Shown here piece after piece: positions 3 to 15,171 of a DNA stretch of 15,171 nt. Within the stretch, counting starts at the first letter, position 1. The number at the start of each line of letters is the position of its first letter. A model generated the notes under the pieces. The model was not told the DNA's origin. It saw nothing but the letters and a program-made list of their open reading frames with translations, and made no database searches. The position numbers and the translations under genes were made by a program. Source of the stretch: a bacterium (GTDB lineage Bacteria; SAR324; NAC60-12). The DNA is taken from NCBI GenBank assembly GCA_965233585.1, contig CBDDTI010000448.1:1-15171 (forward strand). Reading direction: 5' to 3'.

Positions 3-2549
3 ATGAAAAAACGCAGACTTTCGGCCGAACTCAACTGGATAAAACGACTACAGACGCCATATCCTCTTGGCCTTAATGATCAGATCTACCAACAAGGGAA
101 CATATCATCCGTTCGCTCAAATATTAACGTCTTCTCATTGAAACCAGATGTTCGCAGAAAGCGTCGATCTCATGGTGTACGTCGCAATGGTCTCTCTAGG
201 AGAAAACAAAGACTGAATAGGTCCTTGGATGACCTTCTACGAATCGCCAAAAATAACGGTCGACACGAGCTCTTACATGCACTCTCTTCTATTCCGGTAT
301 CTCGAATGAAACCAATCCTGGATGAGGCAGACCGCAGAAGTTTACGACATTCAGATTGATTCAAACTTAAAATGATTATGGCTTTTTCGTTTAATAAACT
401 CTTTCCCCGCATACCTCCACTTCCTCCTTAAACACAGTTTATCAAAATTAAGTTCGTTAATCACGGCTTGGACTTGCTTAATATTTCCAACAGTTTCAGG
501 GATCACAGAGTCACCTCTAAAATCCCTCAGTATTTCGAGAATCTTGACCCTCCTCTTATTTGCTATCAGTACAAAAGTCCTATTCGAAATATCATTTTCA
601 ACTACAACCAAGTAACTTCTGATCCTGATGTTCTGAGTTCCATTCAGCCATCATGATCTTGTGCGGACTCACCGTTTCTGTATCCACCTGCTGGACATGT
701 TGTCACCGGTGACCTTACTTGTATTCCTGATAAAGGATTACGGTCTCTCTTTAAGAAAGGGCCTAAATACAGACTTCCATCCAGGATTGATTTTACTAAG
801 TGCCGGGATATTGTCGAGGATGCACTTCAGACGTATTGTAAACGTTGGTCCAAAAAGGAAGGCGTCGGAGTGCATGCCCTTAACGACTGGAAAAATGAAT
901 TTTTACGCATTATTGACATAAGAATAGACAATTTTACTAAACACCCACATTTGTTCAAACAGCCATCCAGTCGTTCAGTGAAGTCATTGAAAAAGAAAAT
1001 GGAGAAATTACACCGTAAATATGTCTTTGCTCCTGCCGATAAAGCAGCGAATAACGTGATCATTATTTGAAAAAGACACTACGTAGAGGTTTTGAAGGGT
1101 GAATTAAATTCTACGAGTACATACGCACCTGCTCAGTTGACGAAAGACCAACTTCTTGTGCATCATATCAATACTCTCACGAAAATAGATGTCAAAATTG
1201 ATAAATGTGAACTGCCTACATTTTATTGGTTGCCAAAATTACACAAACGTCCTTATAAATCACGTTTTATATCAAATTCAAGTCACTGCTCTACTACCAT
1301 TCTTTCGAAGCATATTACATCTGCTCTGACAGCTGTCAAAGATCATGTTATAAAGTACAGTGAAACTGCTTTTAGCAATAGTAATGTCAATTATTTTTGG
1401 TCCATTAAAAACTCTTCCGAGGTCATCGAAAAGTTGCGACTGCGTAACTTTCGGGGTTCTCAGGTATCTTCTTTCGACTTTTCTACTTTATACACCTCAT
1501 TGCCACATGATCTTATCAAAGCAAAAGTGTTGTCTCTTGTCAACTGGTGTTTCAACAGAGAGTCAAAAACGTACCTCTGTACTTCAGATAAGGCAGGGTT
1601 TTTTAGCAACAAGAAATATGACTCGTATAAATGTTGGTCTTGCGCGGAGTTATGTGAAGCTTTTACTTTCCTCATGGAAAACATATATGTGCAATTTGAT
1701 GGCATGGTATATCAACAAATAGTGGGGATTCCTATGGGCACCAATTGTGCTCCACTTATAGCAGATTTATTTTTATATTGTTACGAGAGGGACTTTATGT
1801 CTGACCTTCAAAAGTCGAAACGTTTTGACCTCATAGATATGTTCAACGATACCTCTCGATATCTTGACGATATTTTCACCATCGATAACCCTGAATTTGA
1901 GAAACATATTCCTGATATATATCCAGCTGAACTTCAGTTGAATAAAGCAAATACTTCAGACAAAGAAACTTCTTTCTTAGATTTAAATATAAAAGTTATT
2001 GGTAGTGACATTCATACCAGCGTTTACGACAAACGCGATGACTTCGGATTTCCTATCGTTAATTTCCCATGGTTGAGTGGTGACGTCCCTAGACTCCCAT
2101 CGTACGGTATTTACATTTCGCAGTTAGTTAGATTTGCTAGGTGTTGTACTAGCGTTTTGGATTTCCATTCTAAAAATCTCCAAATTACTTCAAAACTGCT
2201 GACACAGGGTTATAGATATCACAAGCTTCGAAAAACATTTGGAAAGTTCTTTAGATCATACTCTGAACTTCTGTCGAAATTTGGTGATATTTCGTTCCAA
2301 GAATATTTGTCAAAAGGAATCTCTCACCCGGTCTTCTACGGTGATCTAGTTTACAAACTAAGGAGGGTCAAAGACACACCTAATTTCATCTTGTCGGGTT
2401 CGAAAATAGTCAAACGCCTTCGACGACGACAGTATGACCCAGTGATCATCGAGAGGACTATAGGTCTTGTGCTTGGCCCTTCTACAGCCTTGTACGAACC
2501 GTTCCTAAAGCATTGCACTCTGACTAACAAGGCGGTGGGGACTATATGA
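3..2549 (+). pseudogene. Copy 1 EN-RT selenoprotein ORF, partial, with premature TAA
   Basis: One frame with TGA at 357, 654 and 1068 as in the other copies. AAA>TAA at 429-431 (AAA at 4267-4269 in copy 2), plus several private missense changes nearby. Confidence 0.85.
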
Positions 2550-2601
2550 CGGGCCTTGTCCAAACCTCCTCAGAGGCGACAGGGTCCTGATCTTTGTCCC
2601 C
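2537..2601 (+). promoter_or_regulatory. SECIS element, form II (copy 1)
   Basis: Helix I GGGGAC(2537-42)/GTCCCC(2596-2601); core ATGAC(2546-50)/TGAT(2588-91); helix II GGGCCTTGTC(2551-60)/GACAGGGTCC(2578-87); unpaired AAA(2562-64); apical mini-stem CCTC-ctca-GAGG. The basal stem extends with CTGACTAACAA(2520-30)/TTGTTAGTCGG(2607-17). Confidence 0.92.
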
Positions 2602-2784
2602 TCTGATTGTTAGTCGGGACTCCTTCAGCCATCAGACCTGAGCTCGCTTTCAGCCGGGCGGAGCACAGCCGGCCCTATTTGGATGTCGCTAAATATATTT
2701 TTGATATATAATATTTATTAACTATGCTGTGTGTGTATTGATTTTTATGACCTCTCCGCTTGGTGTGGCTGTTGGTTTGTTGTC

Positions 2785-2792
2785 TATATAAG
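2785..2792 (+). promoter_or_regulatory. Candidate TATA box in the 3' UTR/pseudo-LTR (also at 6623, 10354, 13895)
   Basis: TATATAAG matches TATAWAWR. A start ~30 nt downstream (~2815) would fall just before the ribozyme-like structure. Motif match only. Confidence 0.45.
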
Positions 2793-2826
2793 GAGGTTTA
2801 TTTACAAATTTTTAAATGTGTGTCCT

Positions 2827-2953
2827 TTTGATTACACGGCTGTTGCGGGGAGTGGGAAGGTGGGCCCGTAAACCGGTTAACCACACCAGTTGGGTGGCTG
2901 TAGTTACTCCAACTGACCGTCCTAAGTCGGTCCGCAATTGCTGTTTAATCGAA
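2827..2953 (+). ncRNA. Putative twister ribozyme, P5-type circular permutation (copy 1)
   Basis: P5 2830-2848/2932-2950; P2 GTGG(2852-55)/CCAC(2881-84); conserved GA(2856-57); T1 AGG(2858-60)/CCT(2921-23); L1 TAA(2878-80); T2 AC(2885-86)/GT(2926-27); P3 2887-2915; P4 ACCG/CGGT closing loop TCCTAAGT. P1 is weak (GCC/GGT). Folded manually. Confidence 0.75.
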
Positions 2954-3222
2954 CTTTTTTGTGGCGTTGTTTGTGTTGTCACTTTGCCCCTTTGACATTT
3001 CTGTTGGTATAGGGGCTTTTGTCATAGGACTGGGTCAGATCTCCTCCTTTTTGTCTTTATATCTACACTTATTCCCGGCTGCAGTGTGGAGCGTTGTAAC
3101 AAGGTTCCCCGCGTCCGGGTGTTTAAAGTGTCATTATTCATCTCATTCGAGTTCTGACTTAGTTGTGTGATAGATTCCTTTATACTACGGAATCTTTTCC
3201 CCACAATTACCCGAACCCCAAT

Positions 3223-6200
3223 ATGGCTACAAATTTACTGAATTGCAAAAATAGATCACCTCGAGTTTTACTCACTCCTCTTAGATTACCTTCTGTATCT
3301 TCACTTCATCTTCCTGGCGTTTCTTGTAAAAAACTGTTTACTACCACTAAAGTTGCACTTTCTCCCCTTCACTTTGGTTCTCCAAATTCCAAATCTCAGT
3401 CAGTTTCTAACTCGGGTCGGACTGCAAAGTCCTTTCGTCTCACTAATCGTATTAACAGAAGGTTTTCTAAGATATCCACGTGCAATGCTAGGAGATGTTT
3501 AACATGCCACCATATCTCATGCAAGTCAACTATAACATCCTCTATCAATGGCAAAAGATACGGCATCCAAATCGACAAAGACGTTGATTGAAATAGTTCA
3601 AATTTGATATACGTTATTACATGAGAAGCCAGGGGTTGTGGTGCTCAGTACGTCGGCGAAACATCTCAAAGCCTGAAAGGTCGCTTCCGCAGTCATTCGT
3701 TTAAAATCCGAAACAATTCTAGACGCAAATACAAGAACTTCTTATATGACCACTTCATTAAATATAATCATTCCATAGAAAATGTTACTATAACTCCAGT
3801 TGAAATTCTTTCTAAAAAACCTGGTGATTCGAAAAATGACATGAAAAAACGCAGACTTTCGGCCGAACTCAACTGGATAAAACGACTACAGACGCCATAT
3901 CCTCTTGGCCTTAATGATCAGATCTACCAACAAGGGAACATATCATCCGTTCGCTCACACATTAACGTCTTCTCATTGAAACCAGATGTTCGCAGAAAGC
4001 GTCGATCTCATGGTGTACGTCGCAATGGTCTCTCTAGGAGAAAACAAAGACTGAATAGGTCCTTGGATGACCTTCTACGAATCGCCAAAAATAACGGTCG
4101 ACACGAGCTCTTACATGCACTCTCTTCTATTCCGGTATCTCGACTGAAACCAATCCTGGATGAGGCAGACCGCAGAAGTTTACGACATTCAGATTGATTC
4201 AAACTTAAAATGATTATGGCCTTTTCGTTTAATAAACTCTTTCCCCGCATACCTCCACTTCCTCCTAAAACACAGTTTATCAAAATTAAGTTCGTTAATC
4301 AAGGCCTGGACTTGCTTAATATTTCCAACATTTTCAGGGATCACAGAGTCACCTCTAAAATCCCTCAGTATTTCGAGAATCTTGACCCTCCTCTTATTTG
4401 CTATCAGTACAAAAGTCCTATTCGAAATATCATTTTCAACTACAACCAAGTAACTTCTGATCCTGATGTTCTGAGTTCCATTCAGCCATCATGATCTTGT
4501 GCGGACTCACCGTTTCTGTATCCACCTGCTGGACATGTTGTCACCGGTGACCTTACTTGTATTCCTGATAAAGGATTACGGTCTCTCTTTAAGAAAGGGC
4601 CTAAATACAGACTTCCATCCAGGGTTGATTTTACTAAGTGCCGGGATATTGTCGAGGATGCACTTCAGACGTATTGTAAACGCTGGTCCAAAAAGGAAGG
4701 CGTCGGAGTGCATGCCCTTAACGACTGGAAAAATGAGTTTTTACGCATTATTGACATAAGAATAGACAATTTTACTAAACACCCACATTTGTTCAAACAG
4801 CCATCCAGTCGTTCTGTGAAGTCATTGAAAAAGAAAATGGAAAAATTACACCGTAAATATGTCTTTGCTCCTGCCGATAAAGCAGCGAATAACGTGATCA
4901 TTATTTGAAAAAGACACTACGTAGAGGTTTTGAAGGGTGAATTAAATTCTACGAGTACATACGCACCTGCTCAGTTGACGAAAGACCAACTTCTTGTGCA
5001 TCATATCAATTCTCTCACCAAAATAGATGTCAAAATTGATAAATGTGAACTGCCTACATTTTATTGGTTACCAAAATTACACAAACGTCCTTATAAATCA
5101 CGTTTTATATCAAATTCAAGTCACTGCTCTACTACCATTCTTTCGAAGCATATTACATCTGCTCTGACAGCTGTCAAAGATCATGTTATAAAGTACAGTG
5201 AAACTGCTTTTAGCAATAGTAATGTCAATTATTTTTGGTCCATTAAAAACTCTTCCGAGGTCATCGAAAAGTTGCGACTGCGTAACTTTCGGGGTTCTCA
5301 GGTATCTTCTTTCGACTTTTCTACTTTATACACCTCATTGCCACATGATCTTATCAAAGCAAAAGTGTTGTCTCTTGTCAACTGGTGTTTCAACAGAGAG
5401 TCAAAAACGTACCTCTGTACTTCAGATAAGGCAGGGTTTTTTAGCAACAAGAAATATGACTCATATAAATGTTGGTCTTGCGCGGAGTTATGTGAAGCTT
5501 TTACTTTCCTCATGGAAAACATATATGTGCAATTTGATGGCATGGTATATCAACAAATAGTGGGGATTCCTATGGGCACCAATTGTGCTCCACTTATAGC
5601 AGATTTATTTTTATATTGTTACGAGAGGGACTTTATGTCTGACCTTCAAAAGTCGAAACGTTTTGACCTCATAGATATGTTCAACGATACCTCTCGATAT
5701 CTTGACGATATTTTCACCATCGATAACCCTGAATTTGAGAAACATATTCCTGATATATATCCAGCTGAACTTCAGTTGAATAAAGCAAATACTTCAGACA
5801 AAGAAACTTCTTTCTTAGATTTAAATATAAAAGTTATTGGTAGTGACATTCATACCAGCGTTTACGACAAACGCGATGACTTCGGATTTCCTATCGTTAA
5901 TTTCCCATGGTTGAGTGGTGACGTCCCTAGACTCCCATCGTACGGTATTTACATTTCGCAGTTAGTTAGATTTGCTAGGTGTTGTACTAGCGTTTTGGAT
6001 TTCCATTCTAAAAATCTCCAAATTACTTCAAAACTGCTGACACAGGGTTATAGATATCACAAGCTTCGAAAAACATTTGGAAAGTTCTTTAGATCATACT
6101 CTGAACTTCTGTCGAAATTTGGTGATATTTCGTTCCAAGAATATTTGTCAAAAGGAATCTCTCACCCGGTCTTCTACGGTGATCTAGTTTACAAACTAAG

Positions 6201-6387
6201 GAGGGTCAAAGACACACCTAATTTCATCTTGTCGGGTTCGAAAATAGTCAAACGCCTTCGACGACGACAGTATGACCCAGTGATCATCGAGAGGACTATA
6301 GGTCTTGTGCTTGGCCCTTCTACAGCCTTGTACGAACCGTTCCTAAAGCATTGCACTCTGACTAACAAGGCGGTGGGGACTATATGA
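3223..6387 (+). CDS. GIY-YIG endonuclease / reverse transcriptase polyprotein, 1054 aa, with 5 putative selenocysteines (U123, U134, U325, U424, U562)
   Basis: ATG in AATATGG context. Continuous frame except TGA at 3589, 3622, 4195, 4492 and 4906. EN: CNARRCLTC...DUNSSNLIYVITUEARGCGAQYVGET...RFRSH...LYDHF...ELNWIKRLQTPYPLGLN. Linker: USC...GHVVTGDL...KGPKYR. RT: ADKAANNVIIIUK, YWLPKLHK, SFDFSTLYT, GIPMGTNCAPLIADL, RYLDDI, FLDL. Confidence 0.92.
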
Positions 6388-6664: not shown

Positions 6665-6791
6665 TTTGATTACACGGCTGTTGCGGGGAGTGGGAAGGTG
6701 GGCCCGTAAACCGGTTAACCACACCAGTTGGGTGGCTGTAGTTACTCCAACTGACCGTCCTAAGTCGGTCCGCAATTGCTGTTTAATCGAA
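6665..6791 (+). ncRNA. Putative P5-type twister ribozyme (copy 2)
   Basis: Same sequence as 2827-2953. Predicted cleavage between 6716 and 6717. Confidence 0.75.
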
Positions 6792-6953
6792 CTTTTTTGT
6801 GGCGTTGTTTGTGTTGTCACTTTGCCCCTTTGACATTTCTGTTGGTATAGGGGCTTTTGTCATAGGACTGGGTCAGATCTCCTCCTTTTTGTCTTTAGTG
6901 ATAGATTCCTTTATACTACGGAATCTTTTCCCCACAATTACCCGAACCCCAAT

Positions 6954-9900
6954 ATGGCTACAAATTTACTGAATTGCAAAAATAGATCACCTCGAGTTTT
7001 ACTCACTCCTCTTAGATTACCTTCTGTATCTTCACTTCATCTTCCTGGCGTTTCTTGTAAAAAACTGTTTACTACCACTAAAGTTGCACTTTCTCCCCTT
7101 CACTTTGGTTCTCCAAATTCCAAATCTCAGTCAGTTTCTAACTCGGGTCGGACTGCAAAGTCCTTTCGTCTCACTAATCGTATTAACAGAAGGTTTTCTA
7201 AGATATCCACGTGCAATGCTAGGAGATGTTTAACATGCCACCATATCTCATGCAAGTCAACTATAACATCCTCTATCAATGGCAAAAGATACGGCATCCA
7301 AATCGACAAAGACGTTGATTGAAATAGTTCAAATTTGATATACGTTATTACATGAGAAGCCAGGGGTTGTGGTGCTCAGTACGTCGGCGAAACATCTCAA
7401 AGCCTGAAAGGTCGCTTCCGCAGTCATTCGTTTAAAATCCGAAACAATTCTAGACGCAAATACAAGAACTTCTTATATGACCACTTCATTAAATATAATC
7501 ATTCCATAGAAAATGTTACTATAACTCCAGTTGAAATTCTTTCTAAAAAACCTGGTGATTCAAAAAATGACATGAAAAAACGCAGACTTTCGGCCGAACT
7601 CAACTGGATAAAACGACTACAGACGCCATATCCTCTTGGCCTTAATGATCAGATCTACCAACAAGGGAACATATCATCCGTTCGCTCACACATTAACGTC
7701 TTCTCATTGAAACCAGATGTTCGCAGAAAGCGTCGATCTCATGGTGTACGTCGCAATGGTCTCTCTAGGAGAAAACAAAGACTGAATAGGTCCTTGGATG
7801 ACCTTCTACGAATCGCCAAAAATAACGGTCGACACGAGCTCTTACATGCACTCTCTTCTATTCCGGTATCTCGACTGAAACCAATCCTGGATGAGGCAGA
7901 CCGCAGAAGTTTACGACATTCAGATTGATTCAAACTTAAAATGATTATGGCCTTTTCGTTTAATAAACTCTTTCCCCGCATACCTCCACTTCCTCCTAAA
8001 ACACAGTTTATCAAAATTAAGTTCGTTAATCAAGGCCTGGACTTGCTTAATATTTCCAACATTTTCAGGGATCACAGAGTCACCTCTAAAATCCCTCAGT
8101 ATTTCGAGAATCTTGACCCTCCTCTTATTTGCTATCAGTACAAAAGTCCTATTCGAAATATCATTTTCAACTACAACCAAGTAACTTCTGATCCTGATGT
8201 TCTGAGTTCCATTCAGCCATCATGATCTTGTGCGGACTCACCGTTTCTGTATCCACCTGCTGGACATGTTGTCACCGGTGACCTTACTTGTATTCCTGAT
8301 AAAGGATTACGGTCTCTCTTTAAGAAAGGGCCTAAATACAGACTTCCATCCAGGGTTGATTTTACTAAGTGCCGGGATATTGTCGAGGATGCACTTCAGA
8401 CGTATTGTAAACGCTGGTCCAAAAAGGAAGGCGTCGGAGTGCATGCCCTTAACGACTGGAAAAATGAGTTTTTACGCATTATTGACATAAGAATAGACAA
8501 TTTTACTAAACACCCACATTTGTTCAAACAGCCATCCAGTCGTTCTGTGAAGTCATTGAAAAAGAAAATGGAAAAATTACACCGTAAATATGTCTTTGCT
8601 CCTGCCGATAAAGCAGCGAATAACGTGATCATTATTTGAAAAAGACACTACGTAGAGGTTTTGAAGGGTGAATTAAATTCTACGAGTACATACGCACCTG
8701 CTCAGTTGACGAAAGACCAACTTCTTGTGCATCATATCAATTCTCTCACCAAAATAGATGTCAAAATTGATAAATGTGAACTGCCTACATTTTATTGGTT
8801 ACCAAAATTACACAAACGTCCTTATAAATCACGTTTTATATCAAATTCAAGTCACTGCTCTACTACCATTCTTTCGAAGCATATTACATCTGCTCTGACA
8901 GCTGTCAAAGATCATGTTATAAAGTACAGTGAAACTGCTTTTAGCAATAGTAATGTCAATTATTTTTGGTCCATTAAAAACTCTTCCGAGGTCATCGAAA
9001 AGTTGCGACTGCGTAACTTTCGGGGTTCTCAGGTATCTTCTTTCGACTTTTCTACTTTATACACCTCATTGCCACATGATCTTATCAAAGCAAAAGTGTT
9101 GTCTCTTGTCAACTGGTGTTTCAACAGAGAGTCAAAAACGTACCTCTGTACTTCAGATAAGGCAGGGTTTTTTAGCAACAAGAAATATGACTCATATAAA
9201 TGTTGGTCTTGCGCGGAGTTATGTGAAGCTTTTACTTTCCTCATGGAAAACATATATGTGCAATTTGATGGCATGGTATATCAACAAATAGTGGGGATTC
9301 CTATGGGCACCAATTGTGCTCCACTTATAGCAGATTTATTTTTATATTGTTACGAGAGGGACTTTATGTCTGACCTTCAAAAGTCGAAACGTTTTGACCT
9401 CATAGATATGTTCAACGATACCTCTCGATATCTTGACGATATTTTCACCATCGATAACCCTGAATTTGAGAAACATATTCCTGATATATATCCAGCTGAA
9501 CTTCAGTTGAATAAAGCAAATACTTCAGACAAAGAAACTTCTTTCTTAGATTTAAATATAAAAGTTATTGGTAGTGACATTCATACCAGCGTTTACGACA
9601 AACGCGATGACTTCGGATTTCCTATCGTTAATTTCCCATGGTTGAGTGGTGACGTCCCTAGACTCCCATCGTACGGTATTTACATTTCGCAGTTAGTTAG
9701 ATTTGCTAGGTGTTGTACTAGCGTTTTGGATTTCCATTCTAAAAATCTCCAAATTACTTCAAAACTGCTGACACAGGGTTATAGATATCACAAGCTTCGA
9801 AAAACATTTGGAAAGTTCTTTAGATCATACTCTGAACTTCTGTCGAAATTTGGTGATATTTCGTTCCAAGAATATTTGTCAAAAGGAATCTCTCACCCGG

Positions 9901-10395: not shown

Positions 10396-10522
10396 TTTGA
10401 TTACACGGCTGTTGCGGGGAGTGGGAAGGTGGGCCCGTAAACCGGTTAACCACACCAGTTGGGTGGCTGTAGTTACTCCAACTGACCGTCCTAAGTCGGT
10501 CCGCAATTGCTGTTTAATCGAA
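10396..10522 (+). ncRNA. Putative P5-type twister ribozyme (copy 3)
   Basis: Same sequence as 2827-2953. Predicted cleavage between 10447 and 10448. Confidence 0.75.
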
Positions 10523-10595: not shown

Positions 10596-13500
10596 AAACT
10601 GTTTACTACCACTAAAGTTGCACTTTCTCCCCTTCACTTTGGTTCTCGGGAAATTCCAAATCTCAGTCAGTTTCTAACTCGGGTCGGACTGCAAAGTCCT
10701 TTCGTCTCACTAATCGTATTAACAGAAGGCTTTTCTAAGATATCCACGTGCAATGCTAGGAGATGTTTAACATGCCACCATATCTCATGCAAGTCAACTA
10801 TAACATCCTCTATCAATGGCAAAAGATACGGCATCCAAATCGACAAAGACGTCGATGCTCTGAAATAGTTCAAATTTGATATATGTTATTACATGAGAAG
10901 CCAGGGGTTGTGGTGCTCAGTACGTCGGCGAAACATCTCAAAGCCTGAAAGGTCGCTTCCGCAGTCATTCGTTTAAAATCCGAAACAATTCTAGACGCAA
11001 ATACAAGAACTTCTTATATGACCACTTCATTAAATATAATCATTCCATAGAAAATGTTACTATAACTCCAGTTGAAATTCTTTCTAAAAAACCTGGTGAT
11101 TCGAAAAATGACATGAAAAAACGCAGACTTTCGGCCGAACTCAACTGGATAAAACGACTACAGACGCCATATCCTCTTGGCCTTAATGATCAGATCTACC
11201 AACAAGGGAACATATCATCCGTTCGCTCACACATTAACGTCTTCTCATTGAAACCAGATGTTCGCAGAAAGCGTCGATCTCATGGTGTACGTCGCAATGG
11301 TCTCTCTAGGAGAAAACAAAGACTGAATAGGTCCTTGGATGACCTTCTACGAATCGCCAAAAATAACGGTCGACACGAGCTCTTACATGCACTCTCTTCT
11401 ATTCCGGTATCTCGACTGAAACCAATCCTGGATGAGGCAGACCGCAGAAGTTTACGACATTCAGATTGATTCAAACTTAAAATGATTATGGCCTTTTCGT
11501 TTAATAAACTCTTTCCCCGCATACCTCCACTTCCTCCTAAAACACAGTTTATCAAAATTAAGTTCGTTAATCAAGGCTTGGACTTGCTTAATATTTCCAA
11601 CATTTTCAGGGATCACAGAGTCACCTCTAAAATCCCTCAGTATTTCGAGAATCTTGACCCTCCTCTTATTTGCTATCAGTACAAAAGTCCTATTCGAAAT
11701 ATCATTTTCAACTACAACCAAGTAACTTCTGATCCTGATGTTCTGAGTTCCATTCAGCCATCATGATCTTGTGCGGACTCACCGTTTCTGTATCCACCTG
11801 CTGGACATGTTGTCACCGGTGACCTTACTTGTATTCCTGATAAAGGATTACGGTCTCTCTTTAAGAAAGGGCCTAAATACAGACTTCCATCCAGGGTTGA
11901 TTTTACTAAGTGCCGGGATATTGTCGAGGATGCACTTCAGACGTATTGTAAACGTTGGTCCAAAAAGGAAGGCGTCGGAGTGCATGCCCTTAACGACTGG
12001 AAAAATGAGTTTTTACGCATTATTGACATAAGAATAGACAATTTTACTAAACACCCACATTTGTTCAAACAGCCATCCAGTCGTTCTGTGAAGTCATTGA
12101 AAAAGAAAATGGAAAAATTACACCGTAAATATGTCTTTGCTCCTGCCGATAAAGCAGCGAATAACGTGATCATTATTTGAAAAAGACACTACGTAGAGGT
12201 TTTGAAGGGTGAATTAAATTCTACGAGTACATACGCACCTGCTCAGTTGACGAAAGACCAACTTCTTGTGCATCATATCAATACTCTCACCAAAATAGAT
12301 GTCAAAATTGATAAATGTGAACTGCCTACATTTTATTGGTTACCAAAATTACACAAACGTCCTTATAAATCACGTTTTATATCAAATTCAAGTCACTGCT
12401 CTACTACCATTCTTTCGAAGCATATTACATCTGCTCTGACAGCTGTCAAAGATCATGTTATAAAGTACAGTGAAACTGCTTTTAGCAATAGTAATGTCAA
12501 TTATTTTTGGTCCATTAAAAACTCTTCCGAGGTCATCGAAAAGTTGCGACTGCGTAACTTTCGGGGTTCTCAGGTATCTTCTTTCGACTTTTCTACTTTA
12601 TACACCTCATTGCCACATGATCTTATCAAAGCAAAAGTGTTGTCTCTTGTCAACTGGTGTTTCAACAGAGAGTCAAAAACGTACCTCTGTACTTCAGATA
12701 AGGCAGGGTTTTTTAGCAACAAGAAATATGACTCATATAAATGTTGGTCTTGCGCGGAGTTATGTGAAGCTTTTACTTTCCTCATGGAAAACATATATGT
12801 GCAATTTGATGGCATGGTATATCAACAAATAGTGGGGATTCCTATGGGCACCAATTGTGCTCCACTTATAGCAGATTTATTTTTATATTGTTACGAGAGG
12901 GACTTTATGTCTGACCTTCAAAAGTCGAAACGTTTTGACCTCATAGATATGTTCAACGATACCTCTCGATATCTTGACGATATTTTCACCATCGATAACC
13001 CTGAATTTGAGAAACATATTCCTGATATATATCCAGCTGAACTTCAGTTGAATAAAGCAAATACTTCAGACAAAGAAACTTCTTTCTTAGATTTAAATAT
13101 AAAAGTTATTGGTAGTGACATTCATACCAGCGTTTACGACAAACGCGATGACTTCGGATTTCCTATCGTTAATTTCCCATGGTTGAGTGGTGACGTCCCT
13201 AGACTCCCATCGTACGGTATTTACATTTCGCAGTTAGTTAGATTTGCTAGGTGTTGTACTAGCGTTTTGGATTTCCATTCTAAAAATCTCCAAATTACTT
13301 CAAAACTGCTGACACAGGGTTATAGATATCACAAGCTTCGAAAAACATTTGGAAAGTTCTTTAGATCATACTCTGAACTTCTGTCGAAATTTGGTGATAT
13401 TTCGTTCCAAGAATATTTGTCAAAAGGAATCTCTCACCCGGTCTTCTACGGTGATCTAGTTTACAAACTAAGGAGGGTCAAAGACACACCTAATTTCATC

Positions 13501-13936: not shown

Positions 13937-14063
13937 TTTGATTACACGGCTGTTGCGGGGAGTGGGAAGGTGGGCCCGTAAACCGGTTAACCACACCAGT
14001 TGGGTGGCTGTAGTTACTCCAACTGACCGTCCTAAGTCGGTCCGCAATTGCTGTTTAATCGAA
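13937..14063 (+). ncRNA. Putative P5-type twister ribozyme (copy 4)
   Basis: Same sequence as 2827-2953. Predicted cleavage between 13988 and 13989. Confidence 0.75.
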
Positions 14064-14166
14064 CTTTTTTGTGGCGTTGTTTGTGTTGTCACTTTGCCCC
14101 TTTGACATTTCTGTTGGTATAGGGGCTTTTGTCATAGGACTGGGTCAGATCTCCTCCTTTTTGTCT

Positions 14167-15171
14167 ATGTTTAACATGCCACCATATCTCATGCAAGTCA
14201 ACTATAACATCCTCTATCAATGGCAAAAGATACGGCATCCTAATCGACAAAGACGTTGATTGAAATAGTTCAAATTTGGTATATGTTATTACATGAGAAG
14301 CCAGGGGTTGTGGTGCTCAGTACGTCGGCGAAACATCTCAAAGCCTGAAAGGTCGCTTCCGCAGTCATTCGTTTAAAATCCGAAACAATTCTAGACGCAA
14401 ATACAAGAACTTCTTATATGACCACTTCATTAAATATAATCATTCCATAGAAAATGTTACTATAACTCCAGTTGAAATTCTTTCTAAACAACCTGGTGAT
14501 TCAAAAAATGACATGAAAAAACGCAGACTTTCGGCCGAACTCAACTGGATAAAACGACTACAGACGCCATATCCTCTTGGCCTTAATGATCAGATCTACC
14601 AACAAGGGAACATATCATCCGTTCGCTCAAATATTAACGTCTTCTCATTGAAACCAGATGTTCGCAGAAAGCGTCGATCTCATGGTGTACGTCGCAATGG
14701 TCTCTCTAGGAGAAAACAAAGACTGAATAGGTCCTTGGATGACCTTCTACGAATCGCCAAAAATAACGGTCGACACGAGCTCTTACATGCACTCTCTTCT
14801 ATTCCGGTATCTCGACTGAAACCAATCCTGGATGAGGCAGACCGCAGAAGTTTACGACATTCAGATTGATTCAAACTTAAAATGATTATGGCTTTTTCGT
14901 TTAATAAACTCTTTCCCGAATACCTCCACTTCCTCCTAAAACACAGTTTATCAAAATTAAGTTCGTTAATCAAGGCCTGGACTTGCTTAATATTTCCAAC
15001 ATTTTCAGGGATCACAGAGTCACCTCTAAAATCCCTCAGTATTTCGAGAATCTTGACCCTCCTCTTATTTGCTATCAGTACAAAAGTCCTATTCGAAATA
15101 TCATTTTCAACTACAACCAAGTAACTTCTGATCCTGATGTTCTGAGTTCCATTCAGCCATCTTGATCTTGT
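14167..15171 (+). mobile_element. Naiad-type PLE copy 5, 5'-truncated, frameshifted, runs off window
   Basis: Starts at ATGTTTAACATGCC (equivalent to 3495). 1-bp deletion near 14915-14919 (TTTCCCGAATA vs TTTCCCCGCATA). Confidence 0.92.

What the first reader, a model, noticed from the sequence alone, without database searches (positions are those of the whole stretch)
2827..2953. Circularly permuted (P5-type) twister ribozyme in the pseudo-LTR of a Naiad retroelement
Seen: all twister core elements occur in P5-permuted order: long P5, GTGG-GA-AGG, short P1, TAA-CCAC-AC, P3 hairpin, ACCG-TCCTAAGT-CGGT, P5'. Established: the rice Osa-1-4 twister has UAA-CACU-GC...CCGG-UCCCAAGC-CCGG...AGUG-GAGGG. 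Relative to it, both pseudoknots show compensatory changes here (CCC/GGG to CCU/AGG; GC/GC to AC/GU), and the catalytic G (2856) and the A after the cut site (2879) are kept. Canonical PLE pLTRs carry hammerheads, while N-terminal-EN PLEs were reported to lack canonical hammerheads. Inference: a twister fills that role in this family; I do not recall this being described. Caveat: P1 is only ~3 bp with a 3-nt TGG insert, although P1 is known to be largely dispensable.
Basis: partly seen in the sequence, partly recalled or inferred. Interest (0 to 1): 0.93.

Follow-up and report, generated by a model that had tools for sequence, protein, structure and literature searches.

The report
Twister ribozyme in Naiad retroelement tail
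Each copy of this clam-type Naiad retrotransposon carries, near its 3' end, an RNA motif with every hallmark of a self-cutting twister ribozyme, which would fill the place that hammerhead ribozymes hold in other Penelope-like elements.

Summary
At 2827-2953 (+), and identically at 6665, 10396 and 13937, lies a complete type-P5 twister layout: long P5, P2, closed P3, P4 with an 8-nt loop, both pseudoknots, the GA and the N-A-A cut site (2878/2879). My descriptor found only these 4 copies in the window and nothing in 87 Mb of random sequence.

Rfam does not call it, so membership rests on anatomy and comparison. A model built from the window alone finds the same structure downstream of related Naiad reverse transcriptases in two unrelated contigs (L001, L002). 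Across the three, 94% of pair cells stay paired and 20 of 39 pairs carry double changes. By eye, 5 of 10 published Naiad consensus 3' regions that I read have the same layout.

Instead, two perfect palindromes sit between pseudoknot and cut site in all 8 examples, recalling the dimer-dependent hammerheads of canonical Penelope-like elements.

My literature searches found no paper linking twister to Penelope-like elements. Cleavage is untested.

Verdict: a real, conserved twister-fold element, probably self-cleaving, and a new variant and context of a known ribozyme class.

The parts
2828..2848 (+). P5, 5' strand. Three segments (2828-2834, 2836-2840, 2842-2848) pair with 2946-2952, 2940-2944 and 2932-2938.
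   Evidence: Present in the minimum-energy fold. 13 of 19 P5 pairs show double changes across the window, L001 and L002.
2849..2851 (+). Junction GGA. A2851, just 5' of P2', is kept in all 8 Naiad twisters seen.
   Evidence: Supplement sequences read by eye.
2852..2855 (+). P2, 3' strand (GUGG), pairing with 2881-2884.
   Evidence: helix 2: 90.9% of cells paired, 1 pair with a double change.
2856..2857 (+). G2856 is the presumed general base. A2857 is the presumed trans partner of A2924.
   Evidence: Position relative to P2' and pseudoknot 2, matching the twister table in PMC8501958 and the Rfam twister-P1 consensus line. The catalytic role is inferred.
2858..2860 (+). Pseudoknot 2 (T1), 3' strand AGG, pairing with C2921, C2922 and U2923 of L4.
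   Evidence: 3 of 3 Watson-Crick pairs in the window. Helix 3 has 77.8% of cells paired and one pair that changes A-U to G-C.
2862..2867 (+). Palindrome 1 (GGGCCC). It is too short to be a hairpin.
   Evidence: A perfect palindrome of 6-12 nt, with a different sequence each time, sits here in all 8 examples.
2871..2878 (+). Palindrome 2 (AACCGGUU). This is the P1 position. U2878 is nucleotide -1.
   Evidence: The two halves covary in relatives: the second pair is A-U in the window and U-A in L001, and an inner C-G becomes U-A in L002 and Naiad_Bpla.
2878..2880 (+). L1 U-A-A. The predicted scissile bond lies between U2878 and A2879. A2879 is the presumed general acid.
   Evidence: Sequence layout. 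Cleavage not tested.
2881..2884 (+). P2, 5' strand (CCAC).
2885..2886 (+). Pseudoknot 1 (T2), 5' strand AC, pairing with G2926 and U2927.
   Evidence: 2 of 2 pairs formed in all three tool-held sequences (invariant there). It reads CC/GG in Naiad_Mmer and Naiad_Scon by eye.
2887..2915 (+). P3 hairpin. The outer stem is 2887-2893 with 2909-2915.
   Evidence: Helix 5 has 100% of cells paired and 4 of 7 pairs with double changes.
2916..2931 (+). P4 (ACCG/CGGU) enclosing L4 UCCUAAGU (2920-2927).
   Evidence: helix 6: 100% paired, 1 pair with a double change.
2932..2952 (+). P5, 3' strand.
6665..6791 (+). Copy 2 of the whole motif. Predicted cut at 6716/6717.
   Evidence: 165.1 bits.
10396..10522 (+). 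Copy 3. Predicted cut at 10447/10448.
13937..14063 (+). Copy 4. Predicted cut at 13988/13989.
2538..2600 (+). SECIS element of the same unit, 227 nt upstream of the motif. Further copies at 6376, 10107 and 13648.
   Evidence: Rfam SECIS_1, 42.1 bits against a gathering score of 35.
3223..6387 (+). Intact Naiad ORF of unit 2: 1054 residues read with 5 in-frame TGA codons as selenocysteine.
   Evidence: The reverse-transcriptase part has 3104 homologues at E <= 1e-10. Pfam gives only a sub-threshold RVT_1 match.
3030..3059 (+). 3' terminus of the element. Its last base is about 3059, and the next, 5'-truncated copy follows directly.
   Evidence: Alignment of the four unit junctions.

Best explanation
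The motif is a genuine type-P5 (circularly permuted) twister-fold ribozyme, kept by selection in the 3' UTR of a lineage of bivalve-type Naiad Penelope-like elements.

Proposed mechanism (inferred from the twister literature):
- In the transcript, P5 brings the two halves together, and P2, P3 and P4 form.
- The L4 loop UCCUAAGU docks through two pseudoknots: CCU with AGG, and GU with AC.
- G2856 acts as general base and A2879 as general acid.
- The chain is cut between U2878 and A2879, leaving a 2',3'-cyclic phosphate and a 5'-OH.

Proposed role (inferred): because the elements lie head to tail, cuts in successive copies would release unit-length RNA from tandem or read-through transcripts. 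This is the job proposed for the hammerheads of canonical Penelope-like elements.

Status of each step:
- Shown: the anatomy, its non-random nature and its conservation with covariation.
- Inferred: catalysis, the cut site and the biological role.
For: 1. Anatomy. The full twister anatomy is present, in 4 identical copies.

2. Chance. The strict descriptor gives 4 hits in the window and 0 in 87.2 Mb of random sequence. Fold z = -4.66.

3. Independent detection. A covariance model built only from the window finds full-length matches in two related Naiad fragments:
- L001 1328-1453, 49.1 bits, E = 1.5e-12.
- L002 1615-1712, 22.9 bits, E = 5.8e-05.
- Apart from the window's own reverse strand (28.1 bits), background hits are 8 bits or less.
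In both loci the match lies downstream of a reverse transcriptase that is 61% (L001) or 52% (L002) identical to the window's and downstream of a SECIS match.

4. Covariation on the 3 distinct sequences:
- 94.3% of 105 pair cells are standard pairs.
- 20 of 39 pairs changed on both sides.
- 0 of 500 shuffles reach any of the five measures.
- Slid controls give 30-42% paired.
- RNAalifold predicts the same helices on its own, with 19 compensatory pairs.

5. Published consensus sequences. I read 10 Naiad consensus 3' regions by eye in the supplement of PMC8557442.
- Five show the same ordered layout 150-330 nt from the 3' end: Mmer, Scon, Mphi, Bpla and Mgal.
- Their P5 sequences are unrelated, but each pairs over 10-14 bp.
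- P2 covaries.
- P4 changes from ACCG/CGGU to CCUG/CAGG or CCCG/CGGG.
- Pseudoknot 1 is AC/GU or CC/GG.
- Pseudoknot 2 is ACC/GGU in Bpla and Mgal, against CCU/AGG in the window.

6. Rfam on a relative. The twister-P1 model gives a sub-threshold match (20.0 bits, E = 0.82) to the 3' half of the L002 motif.

7. Tolerance data. In PMC11662667 about 94% of tested natural twister candidates cleaved. Imperfect P1, P2 and P4, any base at -1, insertions after pseudoknot 2 and long P3 were tolerated. All type-P1 twisters carrying a P5 stem-loop cleaved above 0.80.
Against: - No Rfam twister family reaches even E = 10 on the window. This holds for the whole window at gathering scores, for 2700-3100 and for 2825-2955.
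- The L002 match is far below the gathering score (20 against 67.2 bits).
- No cleavage data exist. PMC11662667 tested only type-P1 twisters.
- P1 is not a normal hairpin: palindrome 2 leaves a 0-1 nt 'loop'.
- In 4 of the 8 examples (L002, Mmer, Scon, Mphi) the outer pair of pseudoknot 2 is U.U.
- L001 has an A.G in pseudoknot 2 and a C.A in P2.
- The covariation statistics rest on only 3 distinct sequences, and on an alignment fitted to the model. The pseudoknot columns were not part of the model.
- The five consensus sequences were compared by eye only.
- Five of the 10 consensus 3' regions read show no such motif: Obim, Mcor, Olur, Tgra and Pmar.
- My descriptor was written after seeing the sequence.
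- A cut inside the element's own 3' UTR would remove the last 181 nt. Inserted copies retain those bases up to 3059, so the template for integration cannot be cut at that site.
Confidence: 0.75

Rival explanations
1. It is a conserved but non-catalytic 3' UTR structure, for example the RNA handle that the element's reverse transcriptase recognises for target-primed reverse transcription. On this reading it descends from, or merely resembles, a twister.
For: - It sits 100-330 nt from the element's 3' end, where retroelement reverse transcriptases often bind.
- Rfam gives no twister call.
- P1 is aberrant.
- Integrated copies keep the sequence 3' of the predicted cut.
- Oyster-type Naiads carry a different conserved structure at the same place.
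Against: - A protein handle would have no need to keep N-A-A, GA, the loop AA and both pseudoknots, with compensatory changes, across families whose P5, P2 and P3 sequences have diverged.
- These are exactly the positions that PMC11662667 finds essential for cleavage.
Confidence: 0.12
2. It is a decayed twister: once active in an ancestor, now carried along without function.
For: - Several relatives show mismatches in pseudoknot 2 or P2.
- L002 holds a second, clearly degenerate half-copy at about 1760-1815.
Against: - The window's own copy has no mismatch in P2, P4 or either pseudoknot.
- 20 of 39 pairs show compensatory double changes, which indicates continuing selection on the fold.
- The element itself looks recently active: the unit 2 ORF is intact and the 4 motif copies are identical.
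Confidence: 0.08
3. It is a chance resemblance in a repeated element.
For: The four copies in the window are one sequence repeated, so they count as a single observation.
Against: - 0 descriptor hits in 87.2 Mb of random sequence.
- Independent recovery in L001 and L002 by a structure model.
- The same layout in 5 published consensus sequences.
Confidence: 0.01

Closest known systems
Type-P5 twister ribozymes (twister class of Roth et al. 2014; Rfam twister clan CL00120)
   Same: - Order of elements with the ends in P5, and P1 and P3 closed.
- The N-A-A cut site, GA, an 8-nt L4 with AA, two pseudoknots, and P2 and P4 of 3-4 bp.
- That types P1, P3 and P5 exist is stated in PMC10085705.
   Different: - Not recognised by the Rfam models.
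- Both pseudoknots carry compensatory substitutions relative to the consensus shown.
- P1 is replaced by two perfect palindromes.
- It sits in an animal retroelement.
- I recall, but did not check, that known type-P5 examples are mostly bacterial or environmental. Roth et al. 2014 was not read.
Twister variants at the 5' end of Perere-3 / RTE non-LTR retrotransposons in Schistosoma (PMC8501958; also noted in PMC7761336)
   Same: A twister-class ribozyme embedded in, and co-transcribed with, a retrotransposon. A processing role is proposed.
   Different: - Those are type P1, at the 5' end, with P1 partly supplied by the target-site duplication, in a non-LTR element.
- This one is type P5, in the 3' UTR of a Penelope-like element.
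Minimal type-I hammerheads in the pseudo-LTRs of canonical Penelope-like elements (Cervera & de la Pena 2014; Lunse et al. 2017, as summarised in PMC6765202)
   Same: - Position near the 3' end or pseudo-LTR of tandemly arranged Penelope-like elements.
- The closing helix next to the cut site is extremely short, with a palindromic loop. For the hammerheads this goes with cleavage as dimers.
   Different: - A different ribozyme class and fold.
- Dimer dependence is not shown here.
HDV-like ribozymes of R2, L1Tc and other non-LTR elements
   Same: Self-cleaving RNA used by a retroelement to define an RNA end.
   Different: Unrelated fold, 5'-end location, and a documented role in translation initiation.

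Membership tests
Twister ribozyme (any permutation) | L1 with N(-1)-A-A, and the scissile bond 5' of the first A | tested here: met
   U2878-A2879-A2880 lies directly 5' of P2. A-A is kept in L001 and L002 and in the 5 consensus sequences read by eye. N(-1) is U or C.
Twister ribozyme (any permutation) | G-A immediately 3' of the P2 3' strand (general base G) | tested here: met
   G2856-A2857. These are invariant columns 30-31 of alignment A8.
Twister ribozyme (any permutation) | Pseudoknot between L4 positions 2-4 and the three bases after GA | tested here: met
   - Window: 3 of 3 Watson-Crick pairs (CCU/AGG).
- Across the 3 sequences, 7 of 9 cells are paired, with one compensatory pair.
- U.U or A.G occurs at one end in 5 of the 8 examples.
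Twister ribozyme (any permutation) | Two-base-pair pseudoknot between the bases after P2 and the last two bases of L4 | tested here: met
   AC/GU gives 6 of 6 cells paired. It reads CC/GG in Mmer and Scon by eye.
Twister ribozyme (any permutation) | 8-nt L4 with A-A at positions 5-6, closed by P4 | tested here: met
   UCCUAAGU lies between ACCG and CGGU. P4 is 100% paired.
Twister ribozyme (any permutation) | P1 helix next to the cut site | tested here: inconclusive
   - No ordinary hairpin is present.
- Palindrome 2 (AACCGGUU) occupies the place and covaries in relatives.
- P1 is reported as dispensable.
Twister ribozyme (any permutation) | Score at or above the Rfam gathering threshold for a twister model | tested here: not met
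   No twister match at E <= 10 on the window. L002 scores 20.0 bits against 67.2 for twister-P1. This is an operational criterion. The models do not score pseudoknots and would treat their compensatory changes as mismatches.
Twister ribozyme (any permutation) | Site-specific self-cleavage | not testable with these tools
   Needs an in vitro transcription and cleavage assay.
Type-P5 permutation | 5' and 3' ends enter through P5, with P1 and P3 closed | tested here: met
   A 19-bp interrupted P5 formed by 2828-2848 and 2932-2952 encloses everything else.
Naiad clade of Penelope-like elements (PMC8557442) | N-terminal GIY-YIG endonuclease, CxC linker, DKA motif and C-terminal reverse transcriptase. 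Clam families also have in-frame UGA codons and a SECIS. | tested here: met
   - ORF 3223-6387 shows a ...IYVIT...YVGET... block, then U-S-C at the CxC place, ADKA, then reverse-transcriptase motifs.
- SECIS at 42.1 bits.
- Likeness to Naiad_Mmer and Naiad_Scon proteins was seen by eye.
- Pfam itself gives only RVT_1 at E = 0.042, below its cut-off, and no GIY-YIG hit.
Hammerhead ribozyme of canonical Penelope-like elements | CUGAUGA...GAAA core with three helices | tested here: not met
   No hammerhead match in Rfam at gathering scores over the window or at E <= 10 over 2700-3100. The authors of PMC8557442 likewise found none in Naiads.

The most novel reading that the evidence does not exclude
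Naiad twisters may be built to work only when two copies meet.

- The normal P1 hairpin is replaced by two perfect palindromes. One is GC-rich and 6-12 nt long. The other ends at the cut site.
- These can pair fully only between two RNAs: neighbouring copies in one tandem transcript, or two element RNAs.
- That would make cleavage dimer-dependent, a convergent copy of the design of Penelope-like hammerheads in a different ribozyme class.
- The same palindromes could act as an RNA dimer linkage that favours template jumps by the reverse transcriptase, and hence the head-to-tail arrays typical of these elements.
- More broadly, every Penelope-like lineage may need some self-cleaving RNA and may swap the class freely. 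The different conserved structure in oyster-type Naiads would then be a third solution.
Probability: 0.3. Interest if true: 0.85.

Novelty: new variant of a known kind. Interest (0 to 1): 0.72.

Why it matters
[quoted passage not shown] It suggested that hammerheads might be dispensable parasites of Penelope-like elements (PMC8557442).

If a twister sits where the hammerhead would be in at least two bivalve Naiad lineages, the opposite follows. Self-cleavage would be a required function that can be supplied by different ribozyme classes.

It would also:
- give the twister class a second retroelement host besides RTE-type non-LTR elements;
- give a eukaryotic, high-copy example of the type-P5 permutation;
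- supply a natural set of covarying pseudoknot variants that the Rfam models miss;
- make the question of what ribozymes do for Penelope-like elements testable in a system with two ribozyme classes.

Tried and rejected
Rfam
- Rfam was run at gathering scores over the whole window and at E <= 10 over 2700-3100 and 2825-2955. There was no twister, hammerhead or other ribozyme hit.
- Rfam on L001 and L002 gave only a 20-bit twister-P1 match in L002.

Pairings considered and dropped
- The alternative found by RNAalifold (UGG after pseudoknot 2 with CC.G).
- Both were rejected because they are not kept in L001, Mphi, Bpla or Mgal.

Reverse strand
- The descriptor gives 0 hits there. The model's 28-bit and 21-bit reverse-strand matches only reflect the symmetry of the helices.

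Motif word searches in the supplement of PMC8557442
- These were mostly unproductive. Only the first two occurrences of each term are shown, and lines are wrapped.
- One search gave the Mphi lead. One search gave nothing new.

Protein family searches
- Pfam on the ORF gave 0 families at E <= 0.01, and only sub-threshold RVT_1 at E <= 10.

Dimer folding
- RNAcofold favours dimers by 10-12 kcal/mol for all three sequences.
- Any hairpin-rich RNA gains this way, so I do not count it as evidence.

Literature and sources not reached
- Paper search was badly framed (it did not require the twister term) and is uninformative.
- Lunse et al. 2017 is not held.
- Sequences from the paper's supplement could not be fed to the alignment, Rfam or covariation tools.

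Full report
WHAT THE WINDOW IS

The 15,171 bases hold four and a half head-to-tail copies of one element, with start-to-start spacings of 3838, 3731, 3541 and 3400 nt.
- Each copy carries a long ORF. In unit 2 it runs from 3223 to 6387 and is open if five in-frame TGA codons are read as selenocysteine.
- Each copy has a SECIS element that Rfam scores above its gathering threshold: 42.1 against 35 bits, at 2538, 6376, 10107 and 13648.
- The protein shows an N-terminal ...IYVIT...YVGET... block, the ADKA motif and reverse-transcriptase motifs.
- Its reverse-transcriptase half has 3104 homologues at E <= 1e-10.
- Pfam gives no family at E <= 0.01 and only a sub-threshold RVT_1 match.
- The layout matches the selenoprotein-encoding clam Naiads described in PMC8557442. 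I read passages, the metadata table and the protein starts.
- The four unit junctions share the same 3' end, at about 3059. Each is followed by a next copy that is 5'-truncated to a different extent. This is the usual pattern for tandem Penelope-like elements.

THE OBSERVATION

- The pseudoknot-free minimum-energy fold contains P5, P2, P3 and P4. It gives -54.9 kcal/mol, z = -4.66, and 0 of 200 shuffles fold as well.
- The four copies are identical over 241 nt, so the window alone offers no covariation.
- A descriptor that I wrote after seeing the sequence finds these four sites and nothing else on either strand.
- The same descriptor finds nothing in 7.2 Mb and nothing in 80 Mb of composition-matched random sequence.
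- Chance is therefore excluded, even allowing generously for a tailored descriptor.

THE NEGATIVE RESULT

Rfam gives no twister match. This holds at gathering scores over the window and at E <= 10 over 2700-3100 and 2825-2955. Three features would each cost such models score:
- both pseudoknots carry compensatory substitutions, which a covariance model reads as four mismatches at conserved single-stranded positions;
- P3 is 29 nt long;
- the P1 region is unusual.
This explains the failure but does not remove it. By the curated models, this is not a recognised member.

RELATED SEQUENCES HELD BY THE TOOLS

I aligned the window's reverse transcriptase with 15 homologues and used that alignment to scan the bacterial and archaeal genome collection. 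The scan returned three eukaryote-like fragments inside bacterial assemblies.
- L001 is 61% identical and L002 52% identical to the window's reverse transcriptase.
- Both have a SECIS match (39.3 and 29.2 bits).
- Both carry a twister-like motif 200-350 nt further downstream.

A covariance model built from the window alone, without pseudoknots, recovers both over its full length:
- L001 at 49.1 bits, E = 1.5e-12.
- L002 at 22.9 bits, E = 5.8e-05.
- Apart from reverse-strand self-matches, all other hits are 8 bits or less.

After one round of iteration, L002 (26.7 bits) ranks above the reverse-strand matches (20.9 bits).

On the resulting alignment of three distinct sequences I added both pseudoknots by hand and counted pairs:
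- 94.3% of 105 pair cells are standard pairs.
- 20 of 39 pairs changed on both sides.
- 0 of 500 shuffles reach any of the five measures.
- Partners slid by 1-3 columns give only 30-42% paired.

RNAalifold predicts the same four helices independently, with 19 compensatory pairs.

Caveats: there are only three sequences, the alignment was fitted to the model's helices, and pseudoknot 1 is invariant among the three.

Rfam's twister-P1 model gives a weak match (20.0 bits, E = 0.82, gathering score 67.2) to the 3' half of the L002 motif.

PUBLISHED NAIAD CONSENSUS SEQUENCES

In the supplement of PMC8557442 I read the 3' regions of 10 of the 54 Naiad families by eye (parts 20-23).

Five show the same ordered layout 150-330 nt before the 3' end:
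- Naiad_Mmer and Naiad_Scon, the two selenoprotein clam families;
- Naiad_Mphi, Naiad_Bpla and Naiad_Mgal, from mytilid mussels.

What varies and what is kept among them:
- P5 has unrelated sequences in each, yet each pairs over 10-14 bp.
- P2 covaries. In the mussels and in L002 it reads as 3 bp with one bulged pyrimidine.
- P4 is ACCG/CGGU, CCUG/CAGG or CCCG/CGGG.
- Pseudoknot 1 is AC/GU or CC/GG.
- In pseudoknot 2 the inner pair is U-A in the window and C-G elsewhere. The outer pair is C-G (window, L001), A-U (Bpla, Mgal) or U.U (Mmer, Scon, Mphi, L002).
- The A-A after the cut, the G-A and the loop A-A never change.

Five regions show no such motif: Obim, Mcor (whose consensus ends earlier), Olur, Tgra and Pmar. 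The other 44 families were not inspected. None of the five twister-bearing families is flagged with a hammerhead core in the authors' table.

These sequences could not be passed to the alignment or Rfam tools, so this part rests on reading.

P1 AND THE PALINDROMES

Instead, all eight examples have two perfect palindromes between pseudoknot 2 and the cut site.

Palindrome 1:
- It is 6-12 nt long and has a different sequence in each example. The window has GGGCCC.

Palindrome 2:
- It is 8-11 nt long with a 0-1 nt centre, and it ends at or one base before the cut. The window has AACCGGUU.
- Its two halves covary: the second pair is A-U in the window and U-A in L001, and an inner C-G becomes U-A in L002 and Bpla.

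In shuffles of the 18-22 nt segment, two palindromes this long arise in 0.6-1.0% of trials for each of the three tool-held sequences.

Palindrome 2 could form a 2-4 bp P1 with a tri- or tetraloop. Six-base versions of palindrome 1 (window, L002, Bpla) cannot form a hairpin at all, which points to pairing between molecules.

The review PMC6765202 (passages) describes the hammerheads of Penelope-like elements as having an extremely short, palindromic loop in stem III and as probably cleaving as dimers, helped by the tandem layout. The parallel is striking but untested here. Cofold energies are not discriminating.

LIKELY ACTIVITY

PMC11662667 (sections 9, 32, 33 and passages) tested about 2600 natural type-P1 candidates.
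- About 94% were active.
- Imperfections in P1, P2 and P4, any base at -1, insertions after pseudoknot 2 and long P3 hairpins were tolerated.
- Changes to A1, A2, the general-base G, the loop A and non-wobble pseudoknot mismatches were harmful.
- The window's copy has none of the harmful changes. Its deviations fall in the tolerated classes.
- That study did not test type P5 permutations.

MECHANISM AND ROLE

Inferred chemistry: the twister fold forms and cuts between U2878 and A2879.

Inferred role: in tandem arrays, cuts in successive copies would give unit-length RNA with 5'-OH and cyclic-phosphate ends, as proposed for hammerheads in canonical Penelope-like elements.

A TATA-like TATATAAG at 2785-2792 lies about 36 nt before P5. 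A promoter in the upstream copy's tail would therefore start transcripts right at the ribozyme. This is sequence reading only.

One difficulty remains. Integrated copies extend 181 nt beyond the cut, so the integration template is either uncut at that site or religated.

NOVELTY

Twister in non-LTR retrotransposons is known (PMC8501958; PMC7761336).

Full-text searches found no paper that places a twister in a Penelope-like element:
- twister with Penelope-like: 17 papers, none on this;
- Naiad with ribozyme: 4 papers hold the terms, 3 listed;
- twister with Naiad: 0 papers;
- twister with bivalve: 2 papers hold the terms, 1 listed;
- 'twister ribozyme' with PLEs: 2 reviews;
- twister, retrozyme and mussel.

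The 2026 preprint on animal retrozymes and Penelope-like elements has no mention of twister.

PMC11662667 lists bivalves among taxa with predicted type-P1 twisters. Its supplement could not be opened. Roth et al. 2014 was not read. Some of these sites may therefore already sit in a candidate list without their context having been noticed.

Noticed in passing
Supplement of PMC8557442, part 20 (Naiad_Olur, Naiad_Tgra, Naiad_Pmar 3' UTRs). Not in the window.: These oyster, ark-clam and pearl-oyster Naiads lack the twister loop. At the same place they share another conserved, covarying structure:
- an outer stem;
- a GGGUG/CACCY helix;
- a perfect 8-10 nt palindrome that differs in each;
- a hairpin with an invariant 7-nt loop UGCUUAC;
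- a second 6-bp hairpin.
It may be another ribozyme class or a protein-binding fold.
   Followed up: partly
window 2785-2792 (and the same place in units 2-4): TATA-box-like TATATAAG about 36 nt upstream of the start of P5. A promoter here would begin transcripts right at the ribozyme.
   Followed up: no
window 3223-6387: The ORF of unit 2 has five in-frame TGA codons. Published clam Naiads have 3-4.
- One replaces the first Cys of the CxC motif (..PSUSC..).
- Two lie in the GIY-YIG block.
- One follows ADKAANNVIII.
The terminal TGA (6385-6387) lies inside the SECIS.
   Followed up: partly
window 429-431: The unit 1 ORF has one non-TGA stop where unit 2 has a lysine codon. Unit 1 is therefore broken while unit 2 is intact.
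   Followed up: no
window 3030-3480, 6868-7210, 10599-10760, 14140-14180: All four junctions share the same 3' end of the element (the third stops a little short). The next copy then starts at a different 5' truncation point. This pattern is expected from template jumps or repeated insertion.
   Followed up: partly
L002 1760-1815: A second, degenerate half-twister: the P3-P4-L4 part is kept, with loop UUCCAAGG, but the GA is replaced. It lies about 100 nt after the intact one.
   Followed up: no
L001 (RAYF01000171.1), L002 (NZ_WACP01000033.1), L003; protein P0090: Naiad retroelement fragments with SECIS elements sit in assemblies labelled as bacteria. One homologue is annotated in a clam-symbiont metagenome-assembled genome. 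These are most likely host DNA contamination.
   Followed up: no
window 2875-2882: GGUUAACC is itself a palindrome centred exactly on the predicted cut site. L002 has GUUUAAAC likewise, but Naiad_Mmer does not, so it may be a by-product of palindrome 2 followed by A-A and P2.
   Followed up: no
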